Shown here: positions 1-10,064 of the stretch, one piece after another
Layout: each line of letters begins with the position of its first letter
Position numbering within the stretch: position 1 is the first letter of the stretch
Source: a virus
Taxonomy: Duplodnaviria; Heunggongvirae; Uroviricota; Caudoviricetes
Strand: one strand, 5' to 3'
IMG/VR virus record: IMGVR_UViG_2568526681_000001
DNA: 13,081 nt
Position numbers and translations under genes: made by a program
The notes under the pieces: generated by a model
What the model saw: only the letters and a program-made list of their open reading frames with translations
The model's database searches: none
Told to the model about the DNA's origin: nothing

Positions 1-3000
1 TCACGGGACTGCTGTTGCATAAAGTCCGCTGCTGCTTTTTTCCCGAGGTCATAAACCACCTTCAGGGCAGCCGGACCTATCTGCCCGTTCATGCCGTCGT
101 TATTAATCTCGATATTGTACTGCGGGGCAAACATCGCCATACCTGATCCACAAATCTGTGCCACAACACCCAGCTTACCGTCAGCACCACGACGCAGTGG
201 CAGAATGGCTTCAGGTCCCGCTTCTCCCATCACACCCGCCCCTTTTGCAAAAGCAAAAAACGTCGGACGGTTAACCACCGTGCCACTGTAGCGACTCAAA
301 TCAGCAGACTGATAAATCCCCCCATTGGCATTCAGGGAAAGGCTGCTGAGATCAAATCCCAGTACACTGCCAATCCCTTTTATCGATTTCATCATGGTTG
401 CCTGCGCCAGGATTTTCGCCATATCTGACAGCACAGAAGAGGTGAAGGATTTGAAATTGAGTTTGCCGGTAGTGACAAAAGTTGCCAGGCCATTTCCCAT
501 GTTGCTGAAGGCTGACGAGAACACCTGTTCTGCTGTTTCTGCCGTATTATCTGCATCCACGGTAAAATCCTGAAATGCACGCAGGACTCCGTTTTTCCAG
601 TTACCCTGCACAACTTCAAGCTGTTGCCAGTAACGGCGATTCTCATTCAGTTGTCGGTTCAGGCTCTCCGTCAGCGCCTGCTCGGCCTTTCTGTAGTCAT
701 CCGTGTTATATGTCCCTTTCTGCTCACTATCCCGCCTCAACTGCTCCAGCTGTTGCTGGTATTTCTGGCGAAGACTCAGTTGTACCTGATATCGCTGTCG
801 CTGCTGATCACCCATACCCACCGTGGCGATATCCAGGTCATGTTGCTGACGCTGAGCGCGCTCTTCTTCAGCCAGTTGACTGGTCAGCTGAATTGTTTTT
901 TTCTTCAGCTCGTTGAGTGCCGTCTGTTTCTGAAGCTCCTGCTGTTTTACATCCAGCAGCGTCAGTGCCTGAATCAGTTCATCTTTACGGGCCAGCACAC
1001 TCTTTTCATCTGCCGTCAGTTTTTTCCCGTCCAGGTCGCTGATGCGCTGCTGCAGAGCCAGAAGCTGTTTATGCGCTTCTGTCATCCTTTCCGTGGCAAT
1101 GCCTGCTGACTGTCTGGCAGCAGCAATCTGTCCTTCCACCTGTGCCTGTTGCTGACTGTACTGCAGCAATAACCGGGTGGCCTCATCATTACGGGTTTCG
1201 CGTGTTTTTTTCTTACCGGATGCCAGGGCTTTCTCGTAACGTTCATTTTCACGTTGTATCGCCGCATCCCTGACAGCCTGATCGGCGTACTGCATGGCAT
1301 TAATACGCGCAATTTCACGCTGATGTCGTGCTGCTTCCGTTTCATTCATCCGGTTCAGTGCAGCATTTTCAGCATTACGGCGTTTCTGTTGCTCCTGATA
1401 ATTCCGCTCTGCCTGCTCTTTTGCATCCTGCAAATCCTTCTGGCGTTTTTTCTCCTGAAGCTCGTTAAGACGCTGCTGATCGTATTCAACCTGAGAAGAT
1501 GATGCCGTCCAGGGGAGTCTTTTCGCCCGCGACACTTTCTCCTGTAAAGCGGCAATCTGTTCATCCAGCGAGTCTTCACGACCAATATTCATGGCCGCAT
1601 CCCAGAAACGACTCCACAAATCAGACAGATACTTCAGCGTACTGCCAAGCGCATTGAGGTTATTATCAATATCCGCAGTACGCCGACCGGTTTCCTCTGC
1701 CAGTGCAGACATGGCTATCCGTGCAGCATCACTGGACCGCCCCTGCTCCCCAAGGACGCGTATCTGCTCAAGCTGAGTGGCAGTAAGAAAATGCAGCTCA
1801 TTGTCCAGAGCCTTCGCGGCATTTACAGGATCATCCTTCAGCCGCTTAAACTGATTTATGGTATCGCTGACCGACTGGCCAACCGATCGCTCCATCTGTG
1901 CGGCAGCTCTCGCCACCATACCGATATCGTTTCCACGAAATGCACCACTCCCCACCACCTGAGCCAGCGCACCGGCTGCAGCATGTTGCGTGATACCATT
2001 CCCGGAAATAGCACGACTGAGCGTCCACAGCTGCCCGGCAGTGACTCCGGCATAATGCCCCGTCAGCGACAACTGGCGGTTAAATTCTTCCCCCTCCTTC
2101 TGACCGTCATACCAGGCTTTACCCAGACCATAGACGGCCGCGGCAATACCGCCAATAACCCCGCCAAGCATCATGCCTTTCGGTGACATCAGTGTGTCTA
2201 TCCATCCGGCACGGTTAGCCAGCGTTATCCCGGATCCCCTCAGCGCCCCTAAATTGCCGCGGGCCAGTTCACCTATCAGAACGCCTATCTCCTGGCGGGC
2301 TGCTGCACTTTTCAGACCCAGCGAATGCGTGGCTTTTCCTGCCTGCTCCATTTTGCGGATATACACTTCTGCAGCACTGCTTACCCCCAGCTGGGCTGCC
2401 TTAGCACGAAGCAACTCAGAAGATGAAAGATTCAGGCGGGTTGCCTGCTCTTTAAGCTGACGGATAAACGCCACTTTCTGTCGGGTAGCCTCTTCCTCAG
2501 CCTGTGTAAGAACACGGGTTTTCGCAGTAACCTCAGAAATCAGCGCCAGATAATCCTGCTGACCAATCCCGCCACTGTTTCTGGCCTGTCGGATCTGCTG
2601 CTGAATACGCTGTAATTCCTGCAGCCCCGCACTGGCCTGTTTCACACTGTCAATCTGACGATAAAACGCAGCTGCTGCTTTATCCTGCGCCTCCGCCAGC
2701 GCCCTGGCATGCGCCTGTTCCTCGCGCATTTTCTGGCTCAGTGCCTCCATGCGATGGCGGGTTTGCTCCACCTCCCGGGCCATGCGCTCATGAGCCCGGG
2801 CACTTTTTTCCGCCGTCTGTGCATGGGCGGATGCGGCTGCTGAAGCCGAAGAAGCCGCCTGTGCTGCCTGCCGGGCAGCCTGCGCCTGACGCTCCATAAA
2901 CCGCTGCATACGGGCAGAGGAACGTTCTGCATCGCTGGCCGCTCCATTCAGCAGGTTTTTGATACGGGGAATTTCATTTTTAAACTCCGCCGCATCAATA

Positions 3001-3035
3001 CCCAGATCAATGACCAGGTTGGCTATCTGGTCCAT
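1..3035 (-). CDS. H: Tail tape measure protein (lambda gpH-like), C-terminus truncated by the window edge; at least 1011 codons
   Basis: The minus-strand frame is open from ATG at 3035 (GGAGG Shine-Dalgarno 8 nt upstream; in-frame TGA at 3072-3074 bounds the 5' end) to the window edge; I hand-translated both ends. The N-terminal part is Ala/Gln/Arg/Glu-rich (coiled-coil-like), followed by a Gly-rich hydrophobic segment (GMMLGGVIGGIAAAVYGLG). Near the C-terminus is FAFAKGAGVMGEAGPEAILPLRRGADGKLGVVA, which I recall as a conserved gpH motif. Position directly downstream of G/G-T fits. It is absent from the ORF track because it has no stop within the window. Confidence 0.85.
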   Translation of the reverse strand, partial: MDQIANLVIDLGIDAAEFKNEIPRIKNLLNGAASDAERSSARMQRFMERQAQAARQAAQAASSASAAASAHAQTAEKSARAHERMAREVEQTRHRMEALSQKMREEQAHARALAEAQDKAAAAFYRQIDSVKQASAGLQELQRIQQQIRQARNSGGIGQQDYLALISEVTAKTRVLTQAEEEATRQKVAFIRQLKEQATRLNLSSSELLRAKAAQLGVSSAAEVYIRKMEQAGKATHSLGLKSAAARQEIGVLIGELARGNLGALRGSGITLANRAGWIDTLMSPKGMMLGGVIGGIAAAVYGLGKAWYDGQKEGEEFNRQLSLTGHYAGVTAGQLWTLSRAISGNGITQHAAAGALAQVVGSGAFRGNDIGMVARAAAQMERSVGQSVSDTINQFKRLKDDPVNAAKALDNELHFLTATQLEQIRVLGEQGRSSDAARIAMSALAEETGRRTADIDNNLNALGSTLKYLSDLWSRFWDAAMNIGREDSLDEQIAALQEKVSRAKRLPWTASSSQVEYDQQRLNELQEKKRQKDLQDAKEQAERNYQEQQKRRNAENAALNRMNETEAARHQREIARINAMQYADQAVRDAAIQRENERYEKALASGKKKTRETRNDEATRLLLQYSQQQAQVEGQIAAARQSAGIATERMTEAHKQLLALQQRISDLDGKKLTADEKSVLARKDELIQALTLLDVKQQELQKQTALNELKKKTIQLTSQLAEEERAQRQQHDLDIATVGMGDQQRQRYQVQLSLRQKYQQQLEQLRRDSEQKGTYNTDDYRKAEQALTESLNRQLNENRRYWQQLEVVQGNWKNGVLRAFQDFTVDADNTAETAEQVFSSAFSNMGNGLATFVTTGKLNFKSFTSSVLSDMAKILAQATMMKSIKGIGSVLGFDLSSLSLNANGGIYQSADLSRYSGTVVNRPTFFAFAKGAGVMGEAGPEAILPLRRGADGKLGVVAQICGSGMAMFAPQYNIEINNDGMNGQIGPAALKVVYDLGKKAAADFMQQQSR

Positions 3036-3734
3036 AACGCACACCTCCGGAAATACCTTCCCCAAGATGCATCAGTTCTTCGTCCGTTCGCTCCGGTATC
3101 CCGTCCTCTTCCGGTAAAAGGCTGAAATCAGCCACCGCAGCATCACTGCTGCCGGACACCATTCTCACGATCAATGCCTTCAGCGAGGCAAACTGCGCAT
3201 CCATCCACACATCACTGAAGCTCTGCATCCGGAAATAATCGCCCCACTCACCAAGCTCAGTGGCCGACATTTCCGACAGCATCCGCCGCCAGTCTGCCCG
3301 CCGGAACTCCCGGGCAAGCCGCATGACAAACTGCATTTCCCGCGTCAGGACTTTTCCGGCGTCAGCACCTCATGCTCCAAATCCCCGGCATTCTCAATGG
3401 CCCCCATACCGCTCAGCGACAGAACCATCTCCGCCCCCGCTCCCAGGGCATCATACGACCATGTTGTAATAACGGATGCGCAAAGCGTCTCAACATCCTG
3501 AGACTGTTCCGCATTCCACAGTGAGCGGGAAACCAGCCAGGCATTGATATCCATCCCCATCCGCAGAAAAGCAATCTGTCGTTCAGCCTCCGGCAGTTCT
3601 CCCTCTTCGGCATCAAACTTTGCCGTTCGCTGCTGAACAAACGCCAGATATTCAATTCTCTGCAGCCCGGACAGCTCACTGAGCACCACGGACTGCTTTT
3701 CATAATTAAACGTGCTCTGTTTCAGAAACATCAT
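3007..3734 (-). CDS. Tail assembly chaperone G-T fusion, made by a programmed -1 ribosomal frameshift near the 3' end of G (T-frame part about 3007..3357)
   Basis: The T reading frame (track ORF 3007..3336) is exactly -1 relative to G. It is open upstream only as far as an in-frame TGA about 27 nt before the G stop, so any shift must occur in the last 8 codons of G. An A-rich heptamer G GAA AAG lies there. The G/T arrangement between V and H is conserved in lambda-like phages. The T-frame stop (3007-3009) overlaps the H start by 29 nt. Confidence 0.6.
3345..3734 (-). CDS. G: Tail assembly chaperone G (lambda gpG-like), about 129 aa
   Basis: Start ATG at 3734 (tandem ATGATG, GGTGGAGA Shine-Dalgarno upstream). 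The N-terminus MMFLKQSTFNYEKQSVVLSELSGLQRIEYLAF matches my recollection of lambda gpG (MFLK...TLSELSALQRIEHLA). Sits between V and H. Confidence 0.75.
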   Translation of the reverse strand: MMFLKQSTFNYEKQSVVLSELSGLQRIEYLAFVQQRTAKFDAEEGELPEAERQIAFLRMGMDINAWLVSRSLWNAEQSQDVETLCASVITTWSYDALGAGAEMVLSLSGMGAIENAGDLEHEVLTPEKS

Positions 3735-3747
3735 GTTCTCCACCTGC

Positions 3748-3771
3748 AAAAAAGCCCCGGATAACCGGGGC
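3748..3771 (-). terminator. Intrinsic-terminator-like hairpin between V and G
   Basis: On the minus-strand RNA: GCCCCGG-UUAU-CCGGGGC (7-bp all-GC stem, 4-nt loop) followed directly by UUUUUU. It lies 20 nt after the V stop and just before the G Shine-Dalgarno. The plus-strand side has no U-run, so it is minus-strand specific. Confidence 0.6.
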
Positions 3772-3791: not shown

Positions 3792-4535
3792 TTAACCTGC
3801 GGCGCTGACAGCCACCGTAGCCACTGCCACAAAATCGCCGTCAGAAGTCATGCCCACAATGCTGACACTGCCCTGCTTCACGCCTTTCACCGTGGCCACA
3901 AGCCCGTTCAGGGTCACCGTGGCAGTCTGTGGATCTGTCGAATGCACACTGATCGCTTTGTCACTGGCTCCGTCAGGTTTTACTGTAAAGGTCAGCGTGG
4001 TGGTTGCTCCCACTTTTACACTGGCAGATGCCGGTGCCACCGTCAGCCCGGTAACGCTCACTGTTTCAGTGCCTTCCTCTGCCAGATACGGACGCCCCAC
4101 ACCGCTGATTTTCACTGTGCGGGTCATCACGTCTTTTGAGGCAATGGTTTTACCCAGTGAGCTCAGCCAGCCACGGAAAACATCAACAGTGCCGTTGGGA
4201 TATTTGATACGAAACGCGCAGACTTCACCGGAGTCGAACAACTGAACCAGTTTTTTCTGCCCGCTGTCACCCGGACGCCAGGCCAGCGTCGCCGAAGTAT
4301 CACCAACGGATTTCTGCCCCTGGGTTGTTGTTTTCCAGTCTGCATCTTCATCATCGAGATAAGTGTCATCTTCTGCATCAGCGGTCATTTCGCCAGGTTG
4401 CAGATCCTTCACCATCGCAAGACGCAGCCAGTCAGTGTCCTGTAAAGGGTTCGCAAACGGATCGCCACGGCCGGTGTACATCCAGAACGTCGTTCCCGCA
4501 CCTTTCGTTTTTGCCAGTGGATTTGGTGTGGTCAT
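3792..4535 (-). CDS. V: Major tail protein (lambda gpV-like), 247 aa, with C-terminal Ig-like domain
   Basis: Start ATG at 4535 with a strong Shine-Dalgarno (TAAGGAGGTGGTA-ATG). The sequence MTTPNPLAKTKGAGTTFWMYTGRGDPFANPL...DDEDADW...GDTS.TLAW...KYPNGTVDVFRGW...VGRP matches recalled lambda gpV nearly motif for motif. The C-terminal ~90 aa (TVAPASASVKVGATTTLTFTVKPDG...) resembles the Ig-like (Big_2) domain of gpV. The track ORF start at 4610 is an upstream extension overlapping U and was rejected. Confidence 0.9.
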   Translation of the reverse strand: MTTPNPLAKTKGAGTTFWMYTGRGDPFANPLQDTDWLRLAMVKDLQPGEMTADAEDDTYLDDEDADWKTTTQGQKSVGDTSATLAWRPGDSGQKKLVQLFDSGEVCAFRIKYPNGTVDVFRGWLSSLGKTIASKDVMTRTVKISGVGRPYLAEEGTETVSVTGLTVAPASASVKVGATTTLTFTVKPDGASDKAISVHSTDPQTATVTLNGLVATVKGVKQGSVSIVGMTSDGDFVAVATVAVSAAG

Positions 4536-5545: not shown

Positions 5546-5821
5546 TTACTCAATAAAGATCATTGGCTTACCATTAAAGCGTTCATGCCGTGTGACCGTC
5601 CATTGTTGTCCGTCATAAACAACGCGATCCCCGCGCCGTGGGCGGTATCCCGAAGAAAATACCACCAGAGATACCGCAGGTCCGGACAGAGCATTCAGCT
5701 CTGCCAGTGTTTCTCCCGGGATCACAGTCATATCGACATCATTAATACAGGCCGTTCTTCCCATTCTCCTGACAGTTACCGAGTCCATACGGGAACACAC
5801 AGACTGAAAGGGGGACATCAT
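5546..5821 (-). CDS. Putative head-tail joining protein (gpFII-like), 91 aa
   Basis: Small ORF in the position lambda FII occupies, between head genes and Z. The C-terminal region ([15 protein letters not shown]) loosely resembles the FII C-terminus as I recall it. Its start ATG overlaps the stop of the upstream gene (ATGA). Assignment is by position and weak similarity only. Confidence 0.5.
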
Positions 5822-6288
5822 GAACCACCCCGATCGCCTTTTTCGCCCTTCGGCCCCTGAGGTCCTGCCGGGCCACGCTCACCTGTATCACCCTTTGGCC
5901 CCTGAGGTCCCGGCTCTCCCTTTTCTCCTCTCGGGCCCGTGTCCCCCTTTTCTCCCCTGGCACCACCAAAGTTAATCCTGACAGCGACGACATCACTCCC
6001 GGTACCAGCCTCTTCCCAGACAACCCCGACCAGCGGATCAGAGCCGCTGTTAGTCAGCTGAACTTTTCCGGACTTCAGATAAACCTTCTTACCCGTTTTC
6101 ATATCATCCGTTTTCAGCTTAGGCAGCATAAACACACCTTCGGTCATGCCGTCGCCTGTTTCACCCTGTGGAATATCGGTCAGCGCCACCGCAAAAACAT
6201 CACCCACCTGCACCAGATCTCCGCTGCTGATGGCTGCACTGGCAACAATCGCCACCGTTTTTCCTTCTTCTACAAAATTCTTTGCCAT
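5818..6288 (-). CDS. Putative capsid decoration protein (DUF2190-like N-terminal domain) with a C-terminal collagen-like Gly-X-Y region, 156 aa
   Basis: ATG at 6288 with GGAGA Shine-Dalgarno 5 nt upstream (the track start at 6333 is TTG inside a terminator hairpin and was rejected). N-terminus [36 protein letters not shown]... resembles small phage head-decoration proteins that sit just after the major capsid gene. The C-terminus is 15 uninterrupted G-X-Y triplets. Function assigned by position and recalled family resemblance, without a search. Confidence 0.5.
5821..5964 (-). repeat. Collagen-like Gly-X-Y coding repeat (15 consecutive triplets) forming the C-terminus of the putative decoration protein
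   Basis: Translation reads [48 protein letters not shown]. At nucleotide level the plus strand shows near-repeats such as ggcccctgaggtcc (twice) and cccttttctcc. Confidence 0.8.
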
Positions 6289-6301
6289 AACTGTCTCCAC
6301 A

Positions 6302-6320
6302 CAGCCCCGTTCAGGGGCTG
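6302..6320 (-). other. Stable stem-loop in the 5' UTR of the decoration gene, between the candidate terminator and the Shine-Dalgarno
   Basis: Perfect inverted repeat cagcccc-gttca-ggggctg (7-bp stem, 5-nt loop). It has no following U-tract and ends 8 nt before the GGAGA Shine-Dalgarno of the decoration gene. Confidence 0.5.
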
Positions 6321-6331
6321 ATTTCAGGTAC

Positions 6332-6350
6332 AAAAAAAGCCCTTACGGGC
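6332..6350 (-). terminator. Candidate weak intrinsic terminator after the capsid gene
   Basis: On the minus-strand RNA: GCCC-GUAA-GGGC (4-bp GC stem, GNRA-type tetraloop) followed by UUUUUUU, starting 25 nt after the capsid stop. The stem is short, so efficiency is uncertain. Confidence 0.4.
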
Positions 6351-6374: not shown

Positions 6375-8333
6375 TTACGCCGTACATTTCACCAGACCGC
6401 GGTGATCAACTGGCGCGACACCGGCGTCAATACGCACTTTCGTTGTCACGCCATCCACACTGAAGCCCTCCATCTGATCAATATATGGCGTATCCACACC
6501 GTTGAGATAAGCCACTTCAATCGTATCGGAGCCTTTTGACGCAGCCAGGTAGAAGGTGGTCTGGCTGTTATCATCAAGACGAGGCTCTGCAATAACGGTC
6601 GCAAAATCTTTCACCGGGTTAATAATACCGGCGTTAATGTCAGCCCCCTTGACACTTGAGGAGCGAATGACCTGGTTAGCAACAGACTCCATCGCCGTCG
6701 GTACCAGTACGAACGCAGGACGAATATTCAGATGACGCTCCCCCTCTTTCTGAACGCGCATCAACTGGCGGGCTTTATCCAGCGATGCCACGTCCATTGC
6801 AGCGCTCTCCAGTACGTTTGCATGTTTCGCTTTATCGAACAGACTTACATTATCTGTGGAGATTTTCGGGTTAGACGTCAGAATGGCATAAACCAGATCG
6901 GCAATAGTGGATTTCGCCGCACGGCCCAGTTTCATCGGGACATCGGTCAGCATATTCAGATCATCATTGATAATGGCCTGACGGGTGATACTGAACAGCT
7001 CGCCATAGGTCGCCAGTGCAATAGTGGCCTGTTTATCTCCGGTGGTGACGTATTTATATTCCGCCCCTTCACGCACCTGACGCAGAGCACTGAAGCCCCC
7101 CATACCCACACGATGGGCAATTTTAAAATCAGACAACTGACCTTTCCGCGTCCACTGTTCATAGGTTTCAGGGGCATCTTCCCAGCCCTGCAGAATGGCT
7201 TTGTTCGCAACATCCAGCAGAATATTACCGAAGTCAGACGTACTGTGTGTGAACGCCGCACCGACCATCTGCATCGGGTTATAACCGGAAACCCCAATAC
7301 CCCGTTCAGTCAGTGACATACGGGCATATTCACGCAGGGTCATCCCGTTGTAGACATTATCACGTTCGGTTTTTTCAAATCCGGCACGCGCCATCAGCGC
7401 CTGGCGGATCCCGTCCCCCACAAAATTACCGTTACCGGCATAAATATGAGCCGGGGTATTTTTATTCGATGGTGAAAATTCCTTACCCATTTCATTCAGT
7501 AATTTCTCACGGGCTTGATCCAGCGAGCACTCCGGATCAGAAAGACAACTGGCCTGTAATGTCTGATAACGTCCACCAAACATGCCAAACAGATCATTAA
7601 TACCACTCACGCGTGCTTTTTGCTCAGCCAGCACCTGCGCACGGATACTGTTTTCATCCACCACGGGTGCTGCTGCCTGTACTGGCGCCCGGGAGGCTGC
7701 AGGTTCATCATCCTGTACGCGTGGAGCACTGTTGCGTGGCGCAGTAATCATGTTTCGAATAGATTCCGGCATCTTTTTAAATTCCTCTGTACGTTTTGAC
7801 TGAATACATGCCATTGCCTTAACGGCTGGCGTCACCTGGTCAGCAAATCCATGTGCCAGACATTCGGCACCGGACATCCAGGTCTCATCCGCCAGCATGG
7901 CAGCAATTTCATCGGTGGTTTTCCCGGTTTTCTGTGCATAAGCGGGTAACAGAACCGCCTCAACTTTATCGAGCAGGTCGGCATAGGTGCGCATGTCCTC
8001 CGCATCACCGCCCGTAAAGCCAAATGGTTTATGAATCATCATGAAAGTGTTTTCCGGCATAATGACCGGGTTTCCCACCATCGCAATGACCGACGCCATT
8101 GACGCCGCCACACCGTCGACATAAACGGTAATGGACGCACCATGTGTTTTCAGCGCATTAAAAATGGCGATGCCTTCAAAGACATCACCACCCGGTGAAT
8201 TAATATGGAGATTAATGTGGGTGATATCTCCCAGTGCATTCAGATCACTGATAAACTGCTTCGCTGTAACACCCCAGAAACCAATCTCGTCATAAATATA
8301 AATATCCGCGTCACTCTGGTGACCAGCCTGCAT
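6375..8333 (-). CDS. Fused ClpP-like prohead serine protease / linker (scaffold-like) / major capsid protein, about 652 aa
   Basis: N-terminal domain has ClpP-like motifs: ...IYIYDEIGFWGV...INSPGGDVFEGIAIFNAL...VDGVAASMASVIAMVG (Ser motif) ...MMIHKP (His motif). A Pro/Ala/Gln-rich linker follows (APRNSAPRVQDDEPAASRAPVQAAAPVVD...), then a ~330 aa C-terminal domain typical of phage major capsid proteins. Single uninterrupted frame. I chose ATG at 8333, 13 nt after the portal stop; the track start at 8594 would overlap portal by ~250 nt. The Shine-Dalgarno at 8333 is weak, so the start is uncertain. Confidence 0.82.
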   Translation of the reverse strand: MQAGHQSDADIYIYDEIGFWGVTAKQFISDLNALGDITHINLHINSPGGDVFEGIAIFNALKTHGASITVYVDGVAASMASVIAMVGNPVIMPENTFMMIHKPFGFTGGDAEDMRTYADLLDKVEAVLLPAYAQKTGKTTDEIAAMLADETWMSGAECLAHGFADQVTPAVKAMACIQSKRTEEFKKMPESIRNMITAPRNSAPRVQDDEPAASRAPVQAAAPVVDENSIRAQVLAEQKARVSGINDLFGMFGGRYQTLQASCLSDPECSLDQAREKLLNEMGKEFSPSNKNTPAHIYAGNGNFVGDGIRQALMARAGFEKTERDNVYNGMTLREYARMSLTERGIGVSGYNPMQMVGAAFTHSTSDFGNILLDVANKAILQGWEDAPETYEQWTRKGQLSDFKIAHRVGMGGFSALRQVREGAEYKYVTTGDKQATIALATYGELFSITRQAIINDDLNMLTDVPMKLGRAAKSTIADLVYAILTSNPKISTDNVSLFDKAKHANVLESAAMDVASLDKARQLMRVQKEGERHLNIRPAFVLVPTAMESVANQVIRSSSVKGADINAGIINPVKDFATVIAEPRLDDNSQTTFYLAASKGSDTIEVAYLNGVDTPYIDQMEGFSVDGVTTKVRIDAGVAPVDHRGLVKCTA

Positions 8334-8346
8334 CCTGAACCAGGAA

Positions 8347-9852
8347 TTATTCTTCGGACTGGTTGTCGGTGTGCTGCGGCTCCTGTCGTTTCGTTGCGGC
8401 ACTGCTGCCTCCTTTATCACTGGCCGGATCGGTATCAAATACCAGATCCAGCTTGCGGTTTTCATCAATTTCGGCCTTACGCCGACGTTTGACATCATCC
8501 GGATTACGACCACCTGCACGTACCCAGTCTGATTCTGTCGCCGCTCCACCACGAATCTGGATTTTCCAGGCCTCAGCCTCCTTGACAGGATCAATCCACG
8601 GCATGACCGGACCAGAATAGGTTGCGTTATATAGTGTTTTCATATCCACATCCGACGTAATTTTCAGCAATCCCGCGGCCACAACCATATTCAGCCATGC
8701 CCGGTACACCGGACGGGTTACAGCACCAATAAAACAGTCCTGCAGGATCAGATAACCATCTGTGGACTCAACCAGCTCCTGTCGCTGGGCACTGTAGGTA
8801 CCGTTATAATTACGTGCTGCACTGGAAAAACTCAGACGTGTGCCCGCCGCCACGGCCCGCAACTGACCATTACGAAAAGTTTCCAGGTTAGTGTTAGGCC
8901 GATCAGATTTGACCATGCCGATATCTTCCCCCTTACGCAGATCGTCATAAATAATGCCGGGTGTGATATGCAGTTCCCGATCATTATCTTTATTCGTCAC
9001 GGGGGCCTCATAATCCTGCCCGTCTCCTTTACGGATATACAGCCCCAGTGCTGCAGCAATGCGCGCCGCTGTCAGCTCGGAATCTTCATATTCCTTAAGC
9101 GCGCTGATCCGCATCAGCACACCTGACAACATGGATGTGCCACGCGTCTGATGCAGCCGGCGGGTAAACTTCAGATGCACCATATTTTCAGCGGCGATCT
9201 CTTTGGTATCACTCTGTCGCCCGGTGACCGGATAATTTTTATAAACCAGGTATTTTTTCGGCCTGCCCCACTCATCCAGAAAAACCCCCTGATTCATTCC
9301 CGCAGACTCATCACTGAACATGGGTACAAAATCCGGCTCCATTGCCTCGAGCCAGAAAGGCACGCCGGCAGTCCGCACCAGTCCGGCCCCTGCACCACTG
9401 ACCATCTGGGCAAACACTTCACCATCACGTAACCAGGTACGCAGCAACAAACGCTCGAGCATGGGGCGCGTATGCTGCCCGGTCACATCCGGGCTGACAG
9501 ACCATTCCGCCCACAAACGACGGATAATCATTGCCAGGTCTGTAGCCATATCACCGTTTTTCAGTAATGGCTGGGGTTCAACAATGATCCCTTTTGCGCC
9601 AATCACCCGCTCCTCAAGCTTGTCGAAAGCACCGATGACAAGGTCATGATTGATATCCAGAAAACGGGCCTGCTCCCGCAGGGATACCGCCCCGTACTTA
9701 CTGAGCTGGTCGGCAGAACGGTTTTCCCGTCGGGCTTTGTGTGTGCGGGTGGGTTTCACTGCCTCATAGGCCTGAATTAATGCTCTTGACCGCAACCTCG
9801 CAGCTTTCCAGCCTGGTGAAAAAGCACCAATCACATCATCCAGAATTGCCAT
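8347..9852 (-). CDS. B: Portal protein (lambda gpB-like), 501 aa
   Basis: Size and position (after terminase large subunit and W) fit. The internal region ...LSFSSAARNYNGTYSAQRQELVESTDGYLILQDCFIGAVTRPVYRAWL... parallels recalled lambda gpB (...SYEQLSRNYAQMSYSTARASANESWAYFMGRRKFVASRQASQMFLCWL...). Its start ATG overlaps the W stop (ATGA). Confidence 0.85.
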   Translation of the reverse strand: MAILDDVIGAFSPGWKAARLRSRALIQAYEAVKPTRTHKARRENRSADQLSKYGAVSLREQARFLDINHDLVIGAFDKLEERVIGAKGIIVEPQPLLKNGDMATDLAMIIRRLWAEWSVSPDVTGQHTRPMLERLLLRTWLRDGEVFAQMVSGAGAGLVRTAGVPFWLEAMEPDFVPMFSDESAGMNQGVFLDEWGRPKKYLVYKNYPVTGRQSDTKEIAAENMVHLKFTRRLHQTRGTSMLSGVLMRISALKEYEDSELTAARIAAALGLYIRKGDGQDYEAPVTNKDNDRELHITPGIIYDDLRKGEDIGMVKSDRPNTNLETFRNGQLRAVAAGTRLSFSSAARNYNGTYSAQRQELVESTDGYLILQDCFIGAVTRPVYRAWLNMVVAAGLLKITSDVDMKTLYNATYSGPVMPWIDPVKEAEAWKIQIRGGAATESDWVRAGGRNPDDVKRRRKAEIDENRKLDLVFDTDPASDKGGSSAATKRQEPQHTDNQSEE

Positions 9853-10064
9853 CAGAACCTCGCCAGTTTATATCCCGGATCCCCCCGTCGCCGCGCAGTC
9901 ATGGCAGCAAGACGCCGCTCCCACTCCTGACGCCCCCGTCGGATCTCGGACAGATTTTCCATGGTCATCTGCTGACCATTAAAAGTGACGGATTTTCCGT
10001 CCAGAACTGCCATTTCCGCATCGATATAACGCTGGATCATGGCTTCAATATCATTCTGGTTCAT
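9852..10064 (-). CDS. W: Head completion / head-tail joining protein (lambda gpW-like), about 70 aa
   Basis: Small ORF between terminase large subunit and portal. ...AEMAVLDGKSVTFNGQQMTMENLSEI...ARRRGDPGY resembles recalled lambda gpW (...[31 protein letters not shown]...TQRRRGPAGF). I chose ATG at 10064 (6-nt spacing from GGAGG, ATGA overlap with the A stop); ATG at 10070 is the alternative. Confidence 0.7.
   Translation of the reverse strand: MNQNDIEAMIQRYIDAEMAVLDGKSVTFNGQQMTMENLSEIRRGRQEWERRLAAMTARRRGDPGYKLARF

What the first reader, a model, noticed from the sequence alone, without database searches (positions are those of the whole stretch)
3345..3380. G-T programmed -1 frameshift with a non-canonical slip site (G GAA AAG)
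The T frame is -1 relative to G and is open only for the last ~8 codons of G (an in-frame TGA in the T frame lies ~27 nt before the G stop), so the shift must occur in 3345..3369. The only slippery-looking heptamer there is G GAA AAG (zero frame Glu-Lys). Lambda uses G GGA AAG, so here the P-site codon is GAA and re-pairing after the slip needs a central G:U pair with tRNA-Glu, while A-site tRNA-Lys slips AAG to AAA as usual. This is either a lower-efficiency variant site, which would change the G to G-T ratio, or the shift happens by another mechanism.
Basis: partly seen in the sequence, partly recalled or inferred. Interest (0 to 1): 0.55.

Follow-up and report, generated by a model that had tools for sequence, protein, structure and literature searches.

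The report
Lambda-type G-T frameshift, GGAAAAG slip site
This is the ordinary phage tail-chaperone G/G-T programmed -1 frameshift of a lambda-like E. coli prophage; it uses the slightly imperfect slip sequence GGAAAAG, which is real and conserved but was already annotated as the slip site in phage N15.

Summary
G (3731..3345) ends ACG CCG GAA AAG TCC TGA. The T frame is -1, closed by a TGA at 3372-3370, and open from 3369. GGAAAAG (3357..3351) is the only shift-prone sequence in that 25-nt overlap.

It is not a sequencing error. The junction occurs in 1846 of 5426 complete E. coli genomes. (C/G/T)NG GAA AAG is nucleotide-invariant in about 24 lineages whose G proteins are only 31-100% identical, although the preceding ~20 residues are hypervariable. 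Elsewhere in G, invariant Glu and Lys columns mix GAA/GAG and AAA/AAG. The ATG used to annotate T is not conserved, and T-frame homology begins directly after the heptamer.

The site type is not new. N15's GenBank record marks this heptamer as "slippery sequence for -1 translational frameshift". Gifsy-1, phi80 and mEp043 share it. Lambda has GGGAAAG and Stx1 phages have AAAAAAG at the homologous position.

A possible extra is a GAGG Shine-Dalgarno-like element 10 nt upstream, which is enriched beyond amino-acid constraint in this clade only. No downstream structure was found. Efficiency is untested here. Interest is low to moderate: a new member of a known kind.

The parts
3345..3731 (-). Gene G, tail assembly chaperone (128 aa; an alternative ATG lies at 3734). 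It ends ...L T P E K S stop.
   Evidence: ORF list and translation. Pfam PF06894 E = 1.3e-39. PGAP calls the 387-nt version 'phage tail assembly chaperone G'.
3351..3357 (-). Slip heptamer G GAA AAG (zero frame Glu-Lys; -1 frame GGA AAA).
   Evidence: Sequence. Invariant at synonymous positions in about 24 divergent lineages. The identical heptamer is annotated as 'slippery sequence for -1 translational frameshift' in N15 NC_001901.
3370..3372 (-). TGA in the -1 (T) frame. It sets the 5' limit of where the shift can occur.
   Evidence: Read directly. In relatives L102, L108 and L110 the equivalent -1-frame stop lies only 16 nt before the G stop, narrowing the window to TCG CCG GAA AAG TCC.
3345..3347 (-). 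G stop codon TGA, one codon after the slip site. It sets the 3' limit of the shift window.
3007..3351 (-). [quoted passage not shown] It encodes 114 aa. The predicted G-T fusion is 241 aa with junction ...VLTPEK|VLTREMQFVMRLAREF...
   Evidence: Translation of the fused frames. Pfam PF06223. An alignment of -1-frame products from 13 phages shows homology starting right after the heptamer.
3334..3336 (-). ATG used by deposited records and PGAP as the start of a separate T gene. It is not conserved and is probably an artefact of gene calling.
   Evidence: Annotations (Ayreon uses a different ATG). Relatives have ATT, CTT, CGT or CTG at this codon.
3366..3371 (-). GAGGTG, a Shine-Dalgarno-like element. 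The GAGG core ends 10 nt 5' of the heptamer. It is a candidate frameshift stimulator (inferred, not shown).
   Evidence: The anti-SD duplex profile has its minimum at 6-10 nt upstream. Codon -5 is GAG in 18 of 18 unique contexts that have Glu there. Synonymous resampling gives observed -6.59 vs null -4.44 +/- 0.59 kcal/mol, with 0 of 400 resamples reaching the observed value, in this clade only.
3033..3035 (-). Start codon of H (tape measure protein). H overlaps the end of T by 29 nt and confirms the V-G-T-H gene order.
   Evidence: Pfam TMP_2, TMP_4 and Tape_meas_lam_C on 3035..3.

Best explanation
The window carries the tail-assembly chaperone pair of a lambda-like (mEp460/cdtI/phi458-type) E. 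coli prophage. Most ribosomes translate G and terminate at TGA 3347-3345.

A small fraction slip back one base on G GAA AAG (3357..3351) while tRNA-Glu occupies the P site and tRNA-Lys the A site. tRNA-Lys moves from AAG to the better-pairing AAA. tRNA-Glu re-pairs on GGA, keeping its first and third pairs and accepting a G:U at the second position. Translation then continues in the T frame (GTC CTG ACG ...) to 3007 and yields a 241-aa G-T fusion. By analogy with lambda, this fusion links the tape-measure protein (through its G part) to the major tail protein (through its T part) and is needed in a low, fixed ratio to G.

Shown here: the gene identities, the frame geometry, the narrow shift window, nucleotide-level conservation of the heptamer including its first G, the absence of a conserved T start, and T-frame homology that starts at the heptamer.

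Inferred: that the shift really happens, that both tRNAs slip, and that a GAGG element 10 nt upstream stimulates the shift in this clade through anti-SD pairing, as in dnaX.
For: - **Identity and order:** G is PF06894 and T is PF06223, lying between V (PF16461) and H (TMP_2 / Tape_meas_lam_C).
- **Frame geometry:** T is in the -1 frame in every one of 130 unique G..T sequences. The overlap is 16-61 nt, and as little as 16 nt in L102, L108 and L110.
- **Heptamer conservation:** the site is always GAA AAG preceded by G. This holds in 12 divergent representatives plus 5 more lineages plus Gifsy-1, N15, phi80, mEp043, and Ravinvirus, Klebsiella and Providencia phages.
- **Codon-level control:** only 4 of 20 invariant amino-acid columns in G are codon-invariant, and two of them are the slip-site Glu (GAA 12/12) and Lys (AAG 12/12). 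Another invariant Glu splits GAG 7 / GAA 5 and another invariant Lys splits AAA 6 / AAG 6. AAG makes up only 32 of 154 Lys codons in this phage.
- **First G of the heptamer:** codon -1 is CCG, GCG or CTG, always ending in G, as tandem re-pairing on GGA requires.
- **Local constraint:** the G C-terminus is hypervariable except for the final PEK.
- **T-frame homology:** it starts immediately after the heptamer, K|V/A-L/F-x-x-E-x-x-F, upstream of the annotated ATG.
- **Prior annotation:** N15's record marks GGAAAAG as the slippery sequence, and Gifsy-1's record labels T as made by translational frameshifting.
- **Homologous position:** it carries the proven lambda site GGGAAAG in lambda and Stx2a phages, and the dnaX-type AAAAAAG in a Stx1 phage.
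- **Upstream element:** SD-like element. SD-like sequences 6-17 nt upstream are recognised -1 stimulators (Sharma 2014).
Against: - No protein-level or reporter evidence is available here for this phage.
- In a reconstituted E. coli system, AUG GAA AAG gave mainly zero-frame product with wild-type EF-G and was used as the 'only one tRNA can slip' control (Peng 2019). Intrinsic slipperiness is therefore low.
- There is no downstream stimulatory structure (z = -0.15; weak consensus of -9.3 kcal/mol).
- The SD-like element is absent from the N15/phi80-like clade and weak in L302, L303, L304 and L115, so it cannot be a general requirement.
- The lineages used in the resampling test are not phylogenetically independent.
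- This particular phage does have an ATG (3336) 8 nt after the G stop, so some independent T synthesis cannot be excluded from sequence alone.
Confidence: 0.85

Rival explanations
1. The shift occurs by single-tRNA slippage on the A_AAG tetramer (the NNA_AAG hexamer mechanism known from B. subtilis cdd and IS1222). tRNA-Lys takes the -1 AAA codon, tRNA-Glu does not re-pair productively, and the leading G of the heptamer is irrelevant.
For: A_AAG is the classic -1 tetramer in E. coli, and CGA_AAG hexamers are used naturally (Atkins 2016 review). [quoted passage not shown] A distant clade of G/T pairs has only CTG GCA AAA TAG, with no heptamer at all. An SD-like element upstream, as in cdd, is present in this clade.
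Against: The base before GAA is G in every lineage examined, across three different codon -1 identities (CCG, GCG, CTG). That is a synonymous-site constraint the tetramer model does not predict. The P-site codon is restricted to GAA, GGA or AAA at the homologous position across the family. With the preceding base, each of these allows full or near-cognate re-pairing.
Confidence: 0.25
2. T is made as a separate protein from its own start (ATG 3336 as annotated, or ATG 3324), for example by termination-reinitiation after the G stop, and no frameshift is needed.
For: All deposited records and PGAP annotate T as a separate CDS starting at ATG 3336. That ATG lies 8 nt after the G stop.
Against: - The ATG is not conserved (ATT, CTT, CGT, CTG in relatives), and there is no properly spaced SD: GGGAA abuts the ATG.
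- Conserved T-frame residues (V-L-x-x-E) are encoded upstream of it.
- The T frame is always -1 and always overlaps G.
- The heptamer is constrained at synonymous sites.
- In lambda the T segment is made only as the C-terminal part of the G-T fusion, whose G part binds the tape-measure protein (review).
Confidence: 0.06
3. The GGAAAAG is a sequencing or assembly error or a decayed site (true sequence GGGAAAG), or the fusion arises by transcriptional slippage on the A run.
For: None found. It differs from lambda's site by one base.
Against: The 68-nt junction block shows only three near-identical variants, and the stretch from CTG ACG through the heptamer onward is identical, in 83 independent loci. 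The junction occurs in 1846 complete E. coli genomes at 95-100% identity and in cultured phages N15, phi80, mEp043 and Gifsy-1. Four A's are far below the run length generally associated with transcriptional slippage (established knowledge).
Confidence: 0.02

Closest known systems
Phage lambda G / G-T programmed -1 frameshift (Levin, Hendrix & Casjens 1993; Xu, Hendrix & Duda 2004, 2013, 2014)
   Same: Homologous G (PF06894) and T (PF06223) genes lie between V and H. T is in the -1 frame and overlaps the end of G. The slip site is at the homologous alignment column. No downstream structure was found here, and to my recollection none has been defined for lambda. The expected output is a low-ratio G-T fusion (review).
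   Different: Lambda's heptamer is the canonical G GGA AAG, five codons before the G stop. Here it is G GAA AAG, one codon before the stop. The P-site tRNA is therefore tRNA-Glu, which must accept a second-position G:U. The G proteins are only about 31% identical.
Phage N15 genes 14/15 (NC_001901), with phi80 and mEp043
   Same: The identical heptamer GGAAAAG sits at the G/T junction. N15's record annotates it as 'slippery sequence for -1 translational frameshift'.
   Different: The context is GCG GAA AAG CCC TCG CCA GTG AGC TGA, with the stop six codons later. There is no SD-like element upstream. The N15-like and phi80-type G proteins are about 34% identical to this one.
Salmonella prophage Gifsy-1 (NC_010392) G/T
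   Same: Same sub-clade (G 55% identical) with an identical ACG CCG GAA AAG TCC TGA. T is described in the record as 'part of ... gpG by translational frameshifting'.
   Different: The record names no slip site and has no joined CDS. Upstream it has AAGGAC rather than GAGGTG.
E. coli dnaX (A AAA AAG with an upstream SD and a downstream hairpin)
   Same: The A-site Lys slips from AAG to AAA. This clade has an SD-like element with 10-nt spacing (dnaX described).
   Different: There is no downstream hairpin, the P-site codon is not AAA, and the frameshift product is longer rather than shorter.
A_AAG tetramer / CGA_AAG hexamer sites (B. subtilis cdd, IS1222)
   Same: A low-efficiency -1 shift driven by tRNA-Lys on A_AAG with an imperfect 5' codon (review).
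   Different: Here the 5' codon plus the preceding G allow near-cognate re-pairing, and that G is conserved.
GGGGGAA and 'twofour' motifs of mycobacteriophage tail chaperones (PRFect, McNair et al. 2024)
   Same: The same tRNA-Glu GAA->GGA re-pairing through G:U is proposed. 'twofour' (XXYYYY) formally covers GGAAAA.
   Different: In GGGGGAA the Glu codon is in the A site. Those are bioinformatic motif classes in unrelated chaperone families.

Membership tests
Lambda-type G/G-T tail assembly chaperone frameshift | Two ORFs located between the major tail protein gene and the tape-measure gene | tested here: met
   V is 4535..3792, G is 3731..3345, T runs to 3007, and H starts at 3035.
Lambda-type G/G-T tail assembly chaperone frameshift | Sequence homology to lambda gpG and gpT | tested here: met
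   PF06894 E = 1.3e-39 and PF06223 E = 2.9e-15. Alignments with lambda G and T.
Lambda-type G/G-T tail assembly chaperone frameshift | The second ORF is in the -1 frame, overlaps the 3' end of the first, and lacks a conserved start of its own | tested here: met
   The -1 frame applies in all 130 unique sequences, with a 16-61 nt overlap. ATG 3336 is not conserved, and homology begins at the heptamer.
Lambda-type G/G-T tail assembly chaperone frameshift | A conserved slippery sequence inside the overlap | tested here: met
   GGAAAAG is invariant at synonymous sites across about 24 lineages.
Lambda-type G/G-T tail assembly chaperone frameshift | A G-T fusion protein is made at a low fixed ratio and is required for tail assembly | not testable with these tools
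   Needs a western blot or mass spectrometry, a reporter assay, and phage genetics.
Canonical X_XXY_YYZ tandem-slippage heptamer | Positions 1-3 identical and positions 4-6 identical in the zero-frame register | tested here: not met
   Positions 1-3 are G, G, A. Positions 4-6 are A, A, A. After a -1 slip the P-site tRNA-Glu would face GGA, with a second-position G:U (Peng 2019).
Z_ZZN tetramer / NNA_AAG hexamer -1 sites | A_AAG in the zero-frame register, with tRNA-Lys able to re-pair on AAA | tested here: met
   GA A AAG at 3355..3351. The family is described in the review.
dnaX-type stimulated -1 site | SD-like element about 6-17 nt 5' of the shift site | tested here: inconclusive
   GAGG ends 10 nt upstream. 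It is enriched over synonymous resampling in this clade (0 of 400 resamples) but absent from the N15-like clade, and the lineages are not independent. Function was not tested.
dnaX-type stimulated -1 site | Stable downstream hairpin or pseudoknot 5-9 nt 3' of the site | tested here: not met
   Fold z-score is -0.15. The consensus structure is -9.3 kcal/mol with little covariation and no helix at the right spacing.

The most novel reading that the evidence does not exclude
In the mEp460/cdtI/Gifsy clade the intrinsically weak heptamer G GAA AAG is compensated by a dedicated upstream Shine-Dalgarno-like stimulator: GAG at codon -5 followed by G, 10 nt from the site. This would make it a two-component, dnaX-style signal inside a phage chaperone gene. 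The G family would then tune its G:G-T ratio by moving along a chain of single-base neighbours that all stay shift-competent: GGGAAAG, GGAAAAG, (GAAAAAG), AAAAAAG. This would also mean that a heptamer used as a 'non-slippery' control in ribosome kinetics is a widespread natural programmed site.
Probability: 0.35. Interest if true: 0.4.

Novelty: new member of a known kind. Interest (0 to 1): 0.27.

Why it matters
For genome annotation, this G/T junction is present in about a third of complete E. coli genomes. Every record inspected, PGAP included, annotates it as two separate genes with an arbitrary T start. A joined G-T CDS at GGAAAAG would be the correct model.

For frameshift biology, it is a natural and strongly conserved example of a heptamer with a second-position G:U in the P site. 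The same sequence has been used in vitro as the poorly slipping control. Measuring its in vivo efficiency, with and without the upstream GAGG, would show how much P-site mismatch a programmed site tolerates and how phages set the G:G-T ratio.

It does not reveal a new kind of system.

Tried and rejected
- **Downstream stimulator:** single-sequence folding and a 12-lineage consensus fold gave nothing above shuffles.
- **Heptamer frequency:** 3 matches against 2.24 expected in the window, so occurrence alone says nothing.
- **Apparent natural G-T fusion proteins P0032 and P0046:** they are internal deletions and say nothing about the slip site.
- **Per-species genome scan:** the alignment returned only 13 loci because the back-translated patterns were narrow. 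Diversity came instead from viral-contig scans with divergent queries, exact-protein look-ups and tblastn of annotated phages.
- **Literature:** Xu et al. 2004 (Mol Cell), Xu et al. 2013 (JMB), Licznar et al. 2003 (EMBO J, NNA_AAG series) and the IS1222 paper are not held. I could not check whether GGAAAAG has been measured in vivo or how GAA ranks among NNA_AAG hexamers. Full-text searches for GGAAAAG with phage tail terms found no description of this site.
- **Joined annotation:** none in the eight same-clade records inspected (mEp460, Ayreon, cdtI, PhiR47_1, Tritos, Gifsy-1 and one PGAP record), nor in the annotated distant-clade records or lambda's RefSeq record.
- **SD-like element as a family-wide feature:** rejected. 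The N15/phi80-like clade has GAA at codon -5 and essentially no anti-SD pairing.

Full report
**1. What is at the coordinates**

The genes lie on the minus strand. G runs 3731..3345. A second ATG lies at 3734. PGAP uses the 387-nt form. G ends CAT GAG GTG CTG ACG CCG GAA AAG TCC TGA. In the -1 frame the same stretch reads TGA (3372-3370) GGT GCT GAC GCC GGA AAA GTC CTG ACG CGG GAA ATG... and stays open to 3007.

GGAAAAG occupies 3357..3351.

Pfam identifies G as PF06894 (lambda TAC protein G, E = 1.3e-39), the -1 ORF as PF06223 (minor tail protein T, E = 2.9e-15) and the upstream gene as the lambda-type tail tube protein. Downstream is the tape-measure gene. Upstream is a full lambda-like head-tail module.

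**2. Source**

The region is 97-99% identical to phages phi458, Ayreon, mEp460, cdtI and relatives. The 221-nt junction occurs in 1846 of 5426 complete E. coli genomes. Lambda's junction occurs in 3495.

None of the records inspected joins G and T. They start T at ATG 3336, or at a later ATG in Ayreon.

**3. Is the heptamer real and constrained?**

Among 83 close loci the 68-nt junction block has only three near-identical variants, and the stretch from CTG ACG through the heptamer onward is identical in all. These loci are near-clonal, so this excludes a sequencing error but says little about selection.

Protein homologues down to about 54% identity all end ...[S/T/L]PEK[S/P/F], although the 15-20 residues before that are hypervariable.

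I collected DNA from divergent lineages and analysed every junction.
- The site is CCG GAA AAG followed by TCC, CCC or TTC and then TGA in the E. coli and Salmonella clade, Gifsy-1 included.
- It is GCG GAA AAG TAT TAA in a Symbiopectobacterium prophage.
- It is GCG GAA AAG CC(C/T) ... AGC TGA in N15, phi80, mEp043, a Ravinvirus and a Superficieibacter prophage.
- It is GCG GAA AAG CCC TAG in a Klebsiella phage.
- It is CTG GAA AAG TAG in a Providencia phage.
- In three lineages the -1 frame opens only 16 nt before the G stop, leaving five codons (TCG CCG GAA AAG TCC) in which to shift.

As an internal control, I looked at the 20 amino-acid columns of G that are invariant across 12 divergent representatives. 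Only four are also codon-invariant. Two of them are the slip-site Glu (GAA 12/12) and Lys (AAG 12/12). Another invariant Glu is GAG 7 / GAA 5, and another invariant Lys is AAA 6 / AAG 6. AAG is the minor Lys codon in this phage, 32 of 154.

The base before GAA is G in every lineage, across Pro, Ala and Leu codons. This is nucleotide-level selection on G-GAA-AAG.

**4. T has no conserved start**

ATG 3336 corresponds to ATT, CTT, CGT, CTG and other codons in relatives. [quoted passage not shown] Homology begins at once: K|V/A-L/F-x-x-E-x-x-F-x-x-x-LARE[F/M]-x-R-x-DWR. This is upstream of the annotated ATG. The predicted fusion is 241 aa with junction ...VLTPEK|VLTREMQF....

**5. Comparison with known sites**

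At the same alignment column, lambda, Perceval and Stx2a phages have GCG GGA AAG, and a Stx1 phage has TCA AAA AAG.

The key point for novelty is that N15's GenBank record carries a misc_feature "slippery sequence for -1 translational frameshift" at 10027..10033, and that stretch reads GGAAAAG. Gifsy-1's record calls its T [quoted passage not shown], and its junction is identical to this window's. The site type was therefore recognised by phage annotators long ago.

In the ribosome literature, Peng et al. 2019 used AUG GAA AAG as the control in which "only one tRNA can slip". tRNA-Glu would face GGA with a second-position mismatch, and they obtained mainly zero-frame product with wild-type EF-G.

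The Atkins 2016 review covers A_AAG tetramers, the CGA_AAG sites of cdd and IS1222, and the dependence of NNA_AAG on the 5' codon's tRNA. PRFect (2024) lists a "twofour" motif class and discusses GAA->GGA re-pairing through G:U in mycobacteriophage chaperones.

**6. Mechanism**

The best-supported model is tandem -1 slippage of tRNA-Glu (GAA to GGA) and tRNA-Lys (AAG to AAA). The conserved first G argues for P-site re-pairing and against pure A_AAG tetramer slippage, but only experiments can separate the two.

No downstream structure is detectable (z = -0.15; weak consensus).

Upstream, a GAGG core ends 10 nt before the heptamer (3371..3368).
- Across the clade with the stop close to the site, the anti-SD pairing profile dips at 6-10 nt.
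- Codon -5 is GAG in 18 of 18 unique contexts that have Glu there, while Glu codons at -8 and -10 are mostly GAA.
- Synonymous resampling with this phage's codon usage never reaches the observed mean pairing energy: -6.59 against -4.44 +/- 0.59 kcal/mol, 0 of 400.
- SD-like sequences 6-17 nt upstream are accepted -1 stimulators.

The element is absent in the N15/phi80-like clade and weak in several lineages, and the lineages are not independent. I therefore rate it as a plausible clade-specific stimulator, not an established one.

**7. Verdict**

The finding is a correctly recognised but ordinary member of the lambda G/G-T frameshift family, using a near-canonical heptamer already annotated in N15.

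Three things remain open:
- the in vivo efficiency of GGAAAAG;
- whether one or two tRNAs slip;
- whether the upstream GAGG contributes.

Noticed in passing
window 3771..3748 (-): A strong intrinsic-terminator-like hairpin (GCCCCGG TTAT CCGGGGC followed by TTTTTT) sits between the V stop (3794-3792) and the G start. The mEp460, Ayreon and N15 records annotate an equivalent terminator. It may lower transcription of G, T and H relative to the abundant tail tube protein V.
   Followed up: partly
window 3334..3336 and 3270 (-); E. coli RefSeq genomes: T is annotated as an independent gene with inconsistent starts: ATG 3336 in mEp460, cdtI and PGAP, and ATG ~3270 in Ayreon. No inspected record joins G and T. 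The same unjoined two-gene labels appear in the E. coli genome hit listings. This looks like systematic mis-annotation, and it extends to lambda's own RefSeq entry, which lists G and T separately.
   Followed up: partly
L094, L111, L113 (Ewingella prophage and metagenomic viral contigs), G/T junction: A distant G/T clade (34-35% identical G) has no heptamer. G ends CCA CTG GCA AAA TAG, and T is in the -1 frame. The only shift-prone element is A_AAA immediately before the stop codon, which suggests single-tRNA-Lys slippage, perhaps aided by slow termination.
   Followed up: no
L313 (Stx1a-converting phage Stx1_12188) and L310/L311 (Stx2a phage, PhiR12_2*): At the column homologous to the slip site, the Stx1 phage has the dnaX-type TCA AAA AAG and the Stx2a-type phages have GCG GGA AAG. 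The family therefore uses at least three heptamers (GGGAAAG, GGAAAAG, AAAAAAG) linked by single-base steps.
   Followed up: partly
window 6378..8594 (-): A 739-aa ORF combines a ClpP-type protease domain (residues 95-255) with a major capsid domain (441-736). As listed from its TTG start, it overlaps the 3' end of the portal gene (8350..9852) by about 245 nt, so the true start is probably further downstream.
   Followed up: no
window 5821..6333 (-): A head decoration/cement protein (PF09956) has a C-terminal collagen-like Gly-X-Y repeat (Pfam Collagen, residues 124-169).
   Followed up: no
window ~3133..3116 (-), inside T: The mEp460 record annotates a second 'rho-independent terminator' inside T (GGCTGA TT TCAGCC TTTTA). 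The consensus scan here did not report it, so its significance is unclear.
   Followed up: partly
L086 (MAG 'Bacillota bacterium') and L089 (MAG 'Proteobacteria bacterium'): Contigs binned into non-enterobacterial MAGs encode G proteins 94-98% identical to this E. coli prophage G. This is probably mis-binning or contamination of those MAGs.
   Followed up: no
G homologues P0005, P0012, P0013 (aligned to about window 3445..3430): The ALGAGAEM segment of G varies in the number of Gly-Ala repeats (GAGA, GAGAGA, GAGAGAGA), a short in-frame repeat expansion within the chaperone.
   Followed up: no
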